The notes under the pieces: model-generated
What the model was told of the DNA's origin: nothing
The model's input: only the letters and a program-made list of their open reading frames with translations
The model's database searches: none
Source of the DNA: a virus
Taxonomy: Duplodnaviria > Heunggongvirae > Uroviricota > Caudoviricetes
Virus record (IMG/VR): IMGVR_UViG_2671180846_000027
Length of the DNA: 4,774 bases
Strand: one strand, 5' to 3'
Shown: piece by piece, positions 2,280 through 2,303 of the stretch
How the letters are laid out: every line of letters begins with the position of its first letter
Position numbering within the stretch: position 1 is the first letter of the stretch
Made by a program: the position numbers and the translations under genes

Positions 2280-2303
2280 CCGATATGGGAATTCCCATAT
2301 CGG
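2280..2303. repeat. 24-bp perfect palindrome CCGATATGGGAATTCCCATATCGG
   Basis: Exact reverse-complement symmetry with no spacer, centred on GAATTC. Sits between the moron terminator and the putative hok promoter. Confidence 0.5.

What the first reader, a model, noticed from the sequence alone, without database searches (positions are those of the whole stretch)
2280..2303. 24-bp perfect spacerless palindrome between the moron terminator and the hok promoter
CCGATATGGGAATTCCCATATCGG is exactly self-complementary over 24 bp, with a near-copy of its left flank (GAATTCATTCC) just upstream. It lies about 12 bp upstream of the putative hok -35. Perfect palindromes this long are uncommon and suggest a protein-binding site, a cruciform or RNA hairpin, or the junction left by the insertion event that brought the moron and/or hok cassette into the phage genome.
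Basis: seen in the sequence. Interest (0 to 1): 0.45.

Follow-up and report, generated by a model that had tools for sequence, protein, structure and literature searches.

The report
Orphan palindrome from a phage-defence gene
The 24-bp perfect palindrome is real, but it is not a scar of the paa or hok insertions: it is a stranded fragment of a KilA-N/BstA-type anti-phage gene, in which this palindrome is kept symmetrical by compensatory changes, and free copies of it turn up in many other phages, so it may be a DNA site that such defence proteins recognise.

Summary
CCGATATGGGAATTCCCATATCGG at 2280-2303 is a perfect palindrome, unique in the window and the longest in the 44-kb PPompW prophage. 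It does not mark the paa insertion, and it is not part of the hok cassette. paa-less prophages carry it with the same flanks, 933W and mEp460 hok loci lack it, and its distance to hok varies (52, 70, about 540 bp).

The same sequence lies inside intact 257-aa KilA-N genes of the BstA abortive-infection family, where it encodes D-M-G-I-P-I-S. The window holds about 45 bp of such a gene on the minus strand (PDMGIPISE*IQF).

Across 66 distinct homologues from several phyla, the palindrome persists through compensatory changes that also alter amino acids: 22 alleles, 119 double-change cells against 45 expected, 0 of 500 shuffles.

Stand-alone copies occur in many unrelated phage contexts. These include virulent Dhillonviruses with 0, 1 or 5 tandem copies, and six of nine full-length copies match gene alleles over 24 nt.

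Best reading, inferred and not shown: this is the recognition site of the KilA-N/BstA-like protein, analogous to the anti-BstA 'aba' self-immunity element. Here it is an orphan, possibly inert, in a defective prophage.

The parts
2280..2303 (.). 24-bp perfect spacerless palindrome CCGATATGGGAATTCCCATATCGG. Its 22-bp core CGATATGGGAATTCCCATATCG is identical to the intragenic palindrome of E. coli KilA-N/BstA-like genes.
   Evidence: sequence and uniqueness; identity to L006/L010 genes; longest palindrome in the prophage.
2258..2306 (-). Relic of about 45-50 bp from a minus-strand KilA-N/BstA-like gene (codons about 57-70). It reads P-D-M-G-I-P-I-S-E-*-I-Q-F, against R-D-M-G-I-P-I-S-E-L-I-Q-S-F in the intact gene.
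   Evidence: window 2270-2310 = L006 2501-2541, 88%, same orientation relative to hok; translation; intact gene sequence; other hok-upstream relics keep TGATTGAATT from the gene.
2307..2348 (+). Left end of the hok cassette, containing the putative hok promoter (-35 TTGCTG 2314-2319, -10 TAGGAT 2337-2342; hexamers inferred).
   Evidence: homology to 933W hokW begins at window 2307; hok leader model starts at 2349.
2349..2498 (+). hok mRNA leader / sok antisense region (context, not part of the palindrome element).
   Evidence: Rfam RF01794, 103.9 bits, E 1.3e-23.
507..2257 (+). Segment that replaces about 2 kb of small nin-region genes of paa-less relatives. It contains paa/adfO (1402-2160) and its terminator-like hairpin (2167-2180 plus T run). 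The right junction lies about 22 bp left of the palindrome.
   Evidence: window 56-506 and 2258-2541 align to L004; 507-2257 does not; paa, SBP_bac_11; plasmid paa-like homology ends about 2215-2220; terminator.

Best explanation
The palindrome is a stranded fragment of a gene. An ancestor of this nin region carried, upstream of hok and on the opposite strand, a 257-aa gene with a KilA-N domain and a BstA C-terminal domain, as L006 and L010 still do. Deletions and replacements removed all of it except about 45 bp centred on the gene's internal palindrome. This origin is well supported (my estimate about 0.85).

In the parent gene family the palindrome sits in the codons for D-M-G-I-P-I-S of the KilA-N DNA-binding domain. 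It is kept symmetrical by compensatory substitutions, so it is a selected DNA-level (or RNA-level) element and not a by-product of coding.

My committed mechanism is inferred, not shown. The palindrome is the recognition site of the dimeric KilA-N domain of these BstA-like abortive-infection proteins. It would play the role that the 'aba' (anti-BstA) DNA element plays for BstA of phage BTP1: when amplified on replicating phage DNA, it neutralises the matching BstA-like protein. Its variable arms would provide cognate specificity, and its position inside the gene would keep site and protein linked. Stand-alone copies in phages that lack the gene would then be immunity or decoy sites.

In this window the copy would protect a replicating PPompW-type phage from E. 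coli-type BstA-like defence. Because PPompW is defective in these strains, the copy may now be idle.
For: Origin:
- The 22-bp core and about 17-20 nt of left flank match the intact gene of L006/L010, in the same orientation and on the same side of hok. L006's hok region is 98% identical to the window from 2337 on.
- PPompW has no intact KilA-N gene.

Family identity:
- Pfam KilA-N, E 4e-27.
- PHROG 6287 'BstA abortive infection system', E 2.7e-89, full length.
- PADLOC BstA, E 3e-21.
- 32% identity to the BTP1 BstA C-terminal domain, E 3e-16.

Selection on symmetry:
- In 66 distinct homologue segments, 80.8% of cells are paired against 67.1% in shuffles and 34-48% in slid controls.
- 12 of 14 pairs show double changes: 119 double-change cells against 45.5 expected, 0 of 500 shuffles.
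- 22 distinct 22-nt sequence variants keep at least 10 central base pairs perfect (for example DMGIPIS, SMGIPID, SMGIPMD, ETGIPVS, VTGIPVT, DAGIPAS, SAGIPAD, DVGIPTS), with perfect palindromes up to 28 bp.
- The Pro third base co-varies with the last base of the codon two positions upstream of it.

Sequence-specific signal, not only structure:
- The ATAT allele is kept at all synonymous sites in proteins only 55% identical.
- The imperfect 'DMGIPIT' allele (A.A mismatch) is stably inherited and is copied exactly in orphans.

Orphans:
- 94 of 120 IMG/VR loci with the exact 20-mer lie outside any detectable KilA-N ORF, in more than 20 flank contexts.
- Virulent Dhillonviruses, which have no KilA-N gene, carry 0, 1 or 5 tandem copies after the helicase-primase gene. 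Six of nine full-length copies equal gene alleles over 24 nt.
- L077 carries two different alleles 13 nt apart.

Precedent (Owen et al. 2021, PMC8585504):
- aba is a short DNA element overlapping bstA. It is DNA-based, cognate-specific and effective at high copy, and BstA co-localises with replicating phage DNA.
- The aba elements of other homologues were not mapped.
- BTP1-type and Ec-type genes have start-straddling direct repeats (spacing 56 and 57 nt). The canonical KilA-N subfamily has none, which leaves the palindrome as its only conspicuous cis element.
Against: - No binding or immunity data exist for this subfamily; the link to aba is by analogy only.
- aba of BTP1 is not palindromic. 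It is 63 bp with CCCGCC terminal direct repeats at the start of the gene. BTP1-type and Ec-type bstA genes contain no such palindrome.
- The palindrome also occurs in KilA-N genes with other C-terminal domains (ANT, T5orf172). It therefore goes with a KilA-N subgroup rather than with BstA function as such.
- Arm variation at nearly every position, with pairing maintained, is the classic signature of a nucleic-acid stem. It fits a protein site only if specificity co-evolves.
- Quasi-palindrome template switching could keep the arms matched without any function.
- For the window copy itself, hok-upstream relics show decay in some lineages: a 1-nt deletion, mismatches, and a lost central base. 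Their high conservation is explained by recent common ancestry.
- O157-type genomes appear to lack the intact gene, which is present in only 137 of 5426 E. coli genomes.
- PPompW is defective: frameshifted exonuclease and portal genes, and an IS element between the Q/tRNA region and the terminase genes where a lysis cassette would normally lie.
Confidence: 0.42

Rival explanations
1. Inert relic. The window copy is simply the surviving piece of a deleted KilA-N/BstA-like gene and does nothing here. In the parent gene the palindrome is kept for a reason unrelated to protein recognition. One option is an mRNA or DNA hairpin that limits expression of a toxic protein. Another is no function at all, with the arms kept matched by quasi-palindrome template-switch 'self-correction' during replication.
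For: - Relic status is clear.
- Some hok-upstream copies are decaying.
- PPompW is a defective prophage.
- The flanking DNA is as conserved as the palindrome in the 52-bp type, so there is no extra constraint on the palindrome.
- The covariation pattern is stem-like at nearly all arm positions.
- The hairpin is stable.
- Template-switch correction of quasi-palindromes is an established mutational process in E. coli (own knowledge: Ripley; Lovett and co-workers).
Against: - It does not explain why 20-24-nt copies with exact gene alleles sit in more than 20 unrelated contexts, including virulent phages with tandem arrays and a contig with two different alleles side by side.
- The imperfect DMGIPIT allele persists across diverged genes and is copied faithfully in orphans. 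That argues against both rapid self-correction and a pure stem requirement.
- G.U-type single changes are not enriched over other mismatches.
Confidence: 0.33
2. Recombination hot spot or module-boundary element. The palindrome forms hairpins or cruciforms that provoke breaks (for example SbcCD) or replication slippage. Deletions, replacements and tandem duplications therefore tend to end at it, which is why it is found at mosaic joints.
For: - hok-cassette homology to 933W begins 3 nt after it, and the paa replacement ends about 22 bp before it.
- At least two hok-upstream configurations have different joints on each side of it.
- In Dhillonviruses it is flanked by about 31-bp direct repeats and varies from 0 to 5 copies.
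Against: - A 24-bp palindrome is short for SbcCD-type instability (own knowledge).
- This does not explain the deep conservation with covariation inside an intact gene.
- It does not explain the exact allele matching of orphans.
- It is compatible with the best explanation rather than an alternative to it.
Confidence: 0.12
3. Operator or upstream element of the hok promoter, or an RNA hairpin that insulates or processes read-through transcripts between paa and hok.
For: - Its centre lies about 57 bp upstream of the hok leader start, and it ends 10 bp before the putative -35.
- A stable hairpin would form in any read-through RNA.
Against: - It is absent from most hok loci, including 933W and mEp460.
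- Spacing is variable: 52, 70 and about 540 bp.
- No U tract follows it on either strand, and it was not called as a terminator.
- It is not covered by the Rfam hok/sok model, and no Rfam family matches it.
- It is present where there is no hok at all.
Confidence: 0.05
4. Small selfish palindromic insertion element that spreads on its own, including in-frame into genes (21-24 nt adds DMGIPIS), in the manner of Rickettsia palindromic elements.
For: - The exact 20-mer occurs in AT-rich, neutral and GC-rich contigs, inside unrelated long ORFs, and twice in one gene.
- There is presence/absence polymorphism with flanking direct repeats in Dhillonviruses.
Against: - In KilA-N genes it occupies the same codons across phyla and co-varies in place. 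It is therefore ancestral there, not inserted.
- No candidate mobilising enzyme or consistent target duplication was found.
- Long ORFs in GC-rich DNA may be spurious.
Confidence: 0.06

Closest known systems
aba (anti-BstA) self-immunity element of prophage BTP1 (Owen et al. 2021, Cell Host Microbe, PMC8585504)
   Same: - A short DNA element physically inside or overlapping a BstA-family abortive-infection gene.
- It differs between homologues (cognate).
- It acts as DNA and at high copy on replicating elements, which fits orphan copies and tandem arrays on phage genomes.
- The parent gene here is a BstA-family member, found in the same prophage positions (downstream of cI, or in the nin region).
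   Different: - aba-BTP1 is 63 bp, non-palindromic, bounded by CCCGCC direct repeats, and straddles the start codon.
- The element here is a 22-28 bp perfect palindrome at codons about 58-66 of a canonical KilA-N domain that BTP1 BstA lacks.
- No functional test exists for it.
- Orphan copies outside bstA were not described in that paper.
Intragenic binding site of HK022 Roi (Clerget & Boccard 1996, J Bacteriol 178:4077; recalled from memory, paper not held)
   Same: A nin-region phage DNA-binding protein, related to the Ant/KilA group, that binds a site within its own coding sequence.
   Different: HK022 Roi has no Pfam KilA-N-type DMGIPIS segment, and its gene contains nothing resembling this palindrome (up to 5 mismatches). 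This is an analogy only.
hok/sok type I toxin-antitoxin locus (Rfam RF01794; hokW of 933W)
   Same: It is the immediate neighbour. The palindrome abuts the conserved left end of the hok cassette.
   Different: It is not part of the conserved cassette, being absent from 933W, mEp460 and most hok loci. It lies outside the Rfam model and at variable distance.
Quasi-palindrome template-switch hot spots and selfish in-frame palindromes (for example Rickettsia palindromic elements) - own knowledge
   Same: Palindromes whose arms evolve in concert, and palindromic DNA tolerated in frame within coding sequence.
   Different: Here the element is only 22-28 bp, sits at a fixed codon position in one domain family across phyla, and its free copies track specific gene alleles.

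Membership tests
aba (anti-BstA) self-immunity element | Lies within or overlaps a bstA-family gene locus | tested here: inconclusive
   Parent copies lie inside BstA-family genes (PHROG 6287 E 2.7e-89, PADLOC BstA E 3e-21). The window copy is an orphan with no bstA gene in the prophage.
aba (anti-BstA) self-immunity element | Architecture of the only mapped example: about 63 bp with terminal direct repeats straddling the start codon | tested here: not met
   BTP1 has CCCGCC at -28/+28. The Ec-type gene has ATCCCT at -34/+23. Five of the six canonical KilA-N genes checked (L006, L011, L012, L134, L135) have no such repeats; the sixth, L136, has only an upstream GGTGGGTT repeat at -79/-18 that does not straddle the start codon. 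Their conspicuous element is an internal palindrome.
aba (anti-BstA) self-immunity element | Differs between BstA homologues (cognate pairs) | tested here: met
   22 distinct palindrome alleles among 66 distinct homologue segments, largely following protein clades.
aba (anti-BstA) self-immunity element | DNA copy suppresses the cognate BstA protein and rescues phage replication | not testable with these tools
   Requires plaque, transformation or EMSA assays. Only the BTP1 element has been tested (PMC8585504).
hok/sok locus (conserved cassette element or hok promoter operator) | Conserved together with hok at fixed spacing | tested here: not met
   Absent in 933W and mEp460 and in most IMG/VR hok loci. 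Spacing is 52, 70 or about 540 bp. The Rfam sok model begins at 2349.
Insertion junction or scar of the paa moron | Present only where paa is present, at the exact joint | tested here: not met
   Present with the same left flank in paa-less L004/L005. The paa replacement ends about 22 bp to the left.
Intrinsic (Rho-independent) terminator | GC-rich hairpin followed by a U tract | tested here: not met
   Not called by the scan. The flanks are GCGAAAACGG on the + strand and AATGAATTCA on the - strand.
Any curated RNA family (Rfam 15) | Covariance-model match | tested here: not met
   Only sok/hok (2349-2498) and a chance snoRNA-like hit elsewhere.
KilA-N/BstA-like gene (as a coding relic) | Sequence and reading-frame homology to the gene around the palindrome, in the orientation and position of intact copies | tested here: met
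   Window 2270-2310 matches L006 2501-2541 at 88%. The minus-strand reading is PDMGIPISE*IQF against RDMGIPISELIQSF. The intact gene sits upstream of a 98%-identical hok in L006.

The most novel reading that the evidence does not exclude
A subfamily of prophage BstA-like abortive-infection proteins carries its own cognate recognition or immunity site as a perfect palindrome written into the codons of its KilA-N DNA-binding domain. Site and protein therefore cannot be separated, and they diversify together: the arm changes also change the encoded residues. Temperate and virulent phages that lack the gene have captured 22-24-nt copies of prevailing alleles, sometimes as tandem arrays or multi-allele pairs, as DNA decoys that disarm this defence. 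The palindrome at 2280-2303 is one such orphan.
Probability: 0.3. Interest if true: 0.85.

Novelty: new variant of a known kind. Interest (0 to 1): 0.6.

Why it matters
How BstA-type abortive infection recognises phage DNA, and how 'aba' DNA switches it off, is an open question. The original authors mapped aba for only one homologue and left both questions open.

A deeply conserved, co-varying palindrome inside the DNA-binding-domain codons of a large BstA-like subfamily gives a concrete 22-bp candidate. It can be tested directly by EMSA, plasmid rescue and compensatory mutants.

If free copies in prophages and in virulent Dhillonviruses are functional, they would be DNA decoys. That is an anti-defence strategy based on a short cis element rather than a protein, and it would matter for predicting phage host range and for phage therapy.

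For genome annotation, it shows that a striking intergenic palindrome next to hok in EHEC prophages is a gene relic and not a regulatory or insertion-site feature.

Tried and rejected
- HK022 Roi lead (a protein that binds within its own gene). The HK022 roi gene has no similar sequence at up to 5 mismatches and no palindrome. The 1996 paper is not held. Kept only as an analogy.
- Identity with the mapped aba element. BTP1 aba is non-palindromic and at the gene start. BTP1 and Ec-type bstA contain no palindrome of 7 or more, apart from a terminal 7-bp one.
- Terminator and promoter scans. The palindrome is not called as a terminator and the hok promoter is not called by consensus.
- Rfam: no family matches.
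- Recalled host transcription-factor consensus sites (IclR-type TGGAAAT..ATTTCCA, Fis, LysR T-N11-A and others). None fits, and this was not pursued.
- Dhillonvirus copies as chance convergence. Rejected because several different gene alleles are matched over 24 nt.
- Universality in KilA-N genes. Rejected: many distant KilA-N-ANT genes of gut phages lack it.
- Synonymous-codon resampling alone gives only moderate per-sequence significance (median P 0.02), because the covariation is expressed at the amino-acid level. The pair-count test is the informative one.
- Extra conservation of the orphan relative to its flanks. Not demonstrable, because the modules are too recently shared.
Alignment to Mbp1 places DMGIPIS in a segment absent from APSES domains, which is uninformative.
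- A longer relic (residues 20-78) suggested by weak tblastn hits (E 0.01-0.06). Judged unconvincing.
- Literature searches for the sequence, for KilA-N plus palindrome or inverted repeat, and for BstA follow-ups or Dhillonvirus found nothing relevant.

Full report
**Observation**

Window 2280-2303 is CCGATATGGGAATTCCCATATCGG, a perfect 12+12 palindrome without spacer.
- It is unique in the window even with 3 mismatches allowed, and never arises in 200 dinucleotide shuffles.
- It is the longest perfect palindrome in the complete 44-kb prophage.
- As a single strand it forms a 10-11 bp stem with an AAUU loop. RNA is -18.3 and -19.4 kcal/mol on the two strands, and DNA is -11 kcal/mol. All z-scores are near -4.
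- No T or U run follows on either strand, and it is not called as a terminator.

**Setting**

The window is 100% identical to the nin region of the 'PPompW' lambdoid prophages of EHEC (O157, O111, O55 and others). It occurs in 585 of 5426 complete E. coli genomes. The features, in order, are:
- A DUF1627 gene, ending at 542.
- The paa/adfO adhesin moron (1402-2160, SBP_bac_11), with a terminator-like hairpin at 2167-2180.
- The palindrome.
- hok/sok (Rfam sok model 2349-2498, 103.9 bits).
- rem, a 92-aa ORF, a DUF968/ydfU gene and rusA.

In the annotated representative, PPompW is defective: the exonuclease and portal genes are frameshifted, and an IS element lies after the Q/tRNA region.

**Not a paa or hok junction, and not a hok operator**

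- Homology to hokW of 933W starts at window 2307, 3 nt after the palindrome. Neither 933W nor mEp460 has the palindrome.
- Plasmid-borne paa-like genes align only to about 1198-2220.
- paa-less prophages (L004, L005) carry the palindrome with the same left flank (GAACTGAATTCATT) directly upstream of hokD. Relative to them, window 507-2257 is a replacement whose right end lies about 22 bp left of the palindrome.
- In a survey of hok leaders in IMG/VR, many loci have no palindrome. Those that have one place its centre 52 or 70 bp from the leader anchor, with different joints.
- In L006 it lies about 540 bp upstream, inside a gene.

The palindrome therefore sits at mosaic boundaries but predates them, and it has no fixed geometry with the hok promoter.

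**What it comes from**

In L006, L010, L011 and L012 the same sequence lies inside an intact gene of 253-257 aa, on the strand opposite to hok or downstream of cI. There it encodes D-M-G-I-P-I-S (GAT ATG GGA ATT CCC ATA TCG).

The minus strand of the window reads P-D-M-G-I-P-I-S-E-*-I-Q-F, against R-D-M-G-I-P-I-S-E-L-I-Q-S-F in the gene. Window 2270-2310 aligns to the gene at 88%. L006's hok region is 98% identical to the window from 2337 on. Other hok-upstream copies keep TGATTGAATT from the gene's following codons. PPompW has no intact copy of the gene.

The window element is therefore a relic of about 45 bp from this gene.

**What the gene is**

- The N-terminus is a canonical Pfam KilA-N domain, E 4e-27.
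- The whole protein matches PHROG 6287 'BstA abortive infection system, replication inhibitor', E 2.7e-89.
- The C-terminal half matches PADLOC BstA, E 3e-21.
- The C-terminal half is 32% identical to BstA of phage BTP1, E 3e-16.
- The intact gene is in 137 of 5426 E. coli genomes. A palindrome-region match (window 2225-2320) was found in about 924; this count includes the intragenic copies.

**The palindrome is a selected feature of this gene family**

I collected about 160 homologues from genomes, IMG/VR and metagenomes by protein patterns that do not involve the motif. I then extracted the segment in register from the GTW[VIL]H anchor.

Of 66 distinct segments, about 46 keep a perfect palindrome of at least 20 bp, counted with the central GGAATTCC (arms up to 14 nt, a 28-bp palindrome). 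These have many different arm sequences:
- GTCTATGGGAATTCCCATAGAC (SMGIPID)
- GTCCATGGGAATTCCCATGGAC (SMGIPMD)
- CGAAACGGGAATTCCCGTTTCG (ETGIPVS)
- CGTTACGGGAATTCCCGTAACG (VTGIPVT)
- CGATGCCGGAATTCCGGCATCG (DAGIPAS)
- CGATGTCGGAATTCCGACATCG (DVGIPTS)
- CGATATCGGTATACCGATATCG, among 22 alleles in all

On the alignment, the 14-pair structure gives the following:
- 80.8% of cells are paired, against 67.1% in shuffles and 34-48% when the partner is slid.
- 12 of 14 pairs have changes on both sides.
- There are 119 double-change cells against 45.5 expected, and the covariation score is 0.359 against 0.140. For both, 0 of 500 shuffles reach the observed value.

The compensatory changes include non-synonymous ones (D..S to S..D, M..I to T..V to A..A). 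They also include the synonymous Pro third base, which tracks the last base of the codon two positions upstream of it (the M/T/A codon before Gly). Resampling synonymous codons alone gives 8.4 pairs against 10.8 observed, with a median per-sequence P of 0.02.

Two features point to sequence-specific reading rather than a bare stem:
- The ATAT allele is conserved at every synonymous position in proteins only about 55% identical, including in GC-rich hosts.
- An imperfect allele (DMGIPIT, A.A mismatch) persists across diverged genes.

The palindrome also occurs in some KilA-N genes with ANT or T5orf172 C-termini. It is missing from many distant KilA-N-ANT genes and from BTP1-type and Ec-type bstA.

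**Orphan copies elsewhere**

- The exact 20-mer GATATGGGAATTCCCATATC occurs in at least 120 IMG/VR loci. Of these, 17 are in long BstA-like ORFs, 9 are in other KilA-N ORFs and 94 are outside any detectable KilA-N ORF, in more than 20 different flank contexts. Examples include a site between cro-like and cII-like genes and a site after a RusA-like gene.
- The temperate Hafnia phage Pocitis76 has an intergenic copy equal to the reverse complement of the Hafnia gene allele, mismatch included.
- Virulent Dhillonviruses, which have no KilA-N gene, carry the palindrome just after the helicase-primase gene. The site is polymorphic:
  - empty in 7 contigs;
  - one unit in others (a 23-nt palindrome plus about 31 nt of direct repeat of the flank);
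  - five tandem 53-bp units in Teewinot.
- Six of nine full-length Dhillonvirus copies equal alleles found in the gene family over 24 nt. These include the GGG/ATT and GGA/ATC centre variants and the DMGIPIT allele.
- A GC-rich contig (L077) has two different alleles 13 nt apart, and L030 has a 30-bp perfect version.

**Relation to known biology**

Owen et al. 2021 (PMC8585504) showed the following:
- BstA proteins abort infection by blocking phage DNA replication and co-localise with phage DNA.
- The BTP1 prophage escapes its own BstA through 'aba', a 63-bp DNA element that overlaps the start of bstA.
- aba acts as DNA, works in trans only at high copy, and is specific to its cognate BstA.
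- The aba elements of the E. coli and Klebsiella homologues were not mapped.

The mapped aba is not palindromic. It has CCCGCC direct repeats 56 nt apart that straddle the ATG. I found an analogous ATCCCT pair 57 nt apart in an Ec-type gene. The canonical KilA-N subfamily has no such repeats. The two subfamilies thus differ in both their N-terminal DNA-binding domain and their conspicuous cis element. No paper in the held library mentions this palindrome.

**Mechanism**

Shown:
- The palindrome is real.
- It is a relic of a BstA-family KilA-N gene.
- In that family its symmetry is maintained by compensatory change.
- Allele-matched free copies are widespread in phages that lack the gene.

Inferred: the palindrome is the site recognised by the (dimeric) KilA-N domain and serves as the cognate self-immunity site of this subfamily. 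Orphan copies would then act as immunity or decoy sites when amplified on replicating phage DNA.

For the window copy specifically, the function may be lost or never used, for three reasons:
- The prophage is defective.
- O157-type genomes appear to lack the gene.
- Some sister relics are decaying.

Rivals:
- An inert relic, whose parent palindrome is a nucleic-acid hairpin or is kept matched by template-switch correction.
- A recombination hot spot at module joints.
- A hok-related operator or insulator. This is poorly supported.
- A tiny selfish palindromic element.

**Verdict**

The junction and hok-operator readings are not supported. Origin as a BstA-like gene relic is well supported (about 0.85). 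The recognition or immunity function is plausible but untested (about 0.3-0.4).

The window feature itself is modest. The lead it opens is new as far as the held literature shows, and directly testable: a conserved, co-varying palindrome inside a defence gene, with decoy-like copies in phages.

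Noticed in passing
L524 (NZ_CP024289 382835-383740, BstA-Ec-type gene) and L308 (BTP1 bstA): The Ec-type bstA has ATCCCT direct repeats at -34 and +23 (57 nt apart) straddling its start codon. This mirrors the CCCGCC repeats at -28/+28 (56 nt) that bound the mapped aba element of BTP1, and makes it a candidate for the unmapped aba of that homologue.
   Followed up: partly
L008 (Teewinot OK499993) 37650-38250; L009 2000-2560: The Dhillonvirus intergenic region after the helicase-primase gene is packed with repeats: at least 8 copies of GCGGGACA(A) and several (C/T)ATTGGTTGCC motifs, besides the palindrome units. It looks like an origin or regulatory region with iterons.
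   Followed up: partly
L077 about 13840-13920 (IMG/VR 2902417757_000003): A GC-rich contig carries two AT-richer palindromes of different alleles 13 nt apart: CGATATGGGAATTCCCATATCG and CCGTTACGGGAATTCCCGTTTCGG. The second is a hybrid of two gene alleles.
   Followed up: no
L108 about 3190-3260; L030 4929: A 472-aa zf-C2H2 + KilA-N + T5orf172/MUG113 protein has two in-frame copies of the motif (VDMGIPIPG..SDMGIPIS). L030 has a 30-bp perfect palindrome, GGATCGATATGGGAATTCCCATATCGATCC.
   Followed up: partly
window 1210-1237: A second perfect inverted repeat, ATGTTGATTACA-aaaa-TGTAATCAACAT (12-nt arms, 4-nt spacer), lies about 165-190 bp upstream of the paa start codon in AT-rich DNA. It is a possible operator of the moron.
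   Followed up: no
window 2542-2611: A run of 70 N masks part of hok. In PPompW_132418 the corresponding stretch is 165 nt and completes a HokD/RelF-identical 51-aa ORF. Coordinates after the mask are therefore shifted relative to the real sequence.
   Followed up: yes
window about 285-300: Relative to PPompW_132418, the DUF1627 gene has a 1-nt deletion (GTT GCG TTA becomes GTTCGTTA). This splits it into ORFs 142-396 and 339-542. It is either a pseudogene or a sequencing error.
   Followed up: partly
window 2225-2264: The 40 nt between the paa-cassette homology and the gene relic match (92%) unannotated DNA in the replication (rop / replication-initiation) region of small Rop- and MobC-encoding (ColE1-like) E. 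coli plasmids (for example pKFu015_4). This hints that the paa segment passed through a plasmid.
   Followed up: partly
L305 (Providencia phage Redjac) about 2001-2027: A related quasi-palindrome, CCGCTATGGGAATTCCCATGACGG, lies in a long unannotated stretch downstream of the primase gene of a Casjensviridae phage. This echoes the position after a replication gene seen in Dhillonviruses.
   Followed up: no
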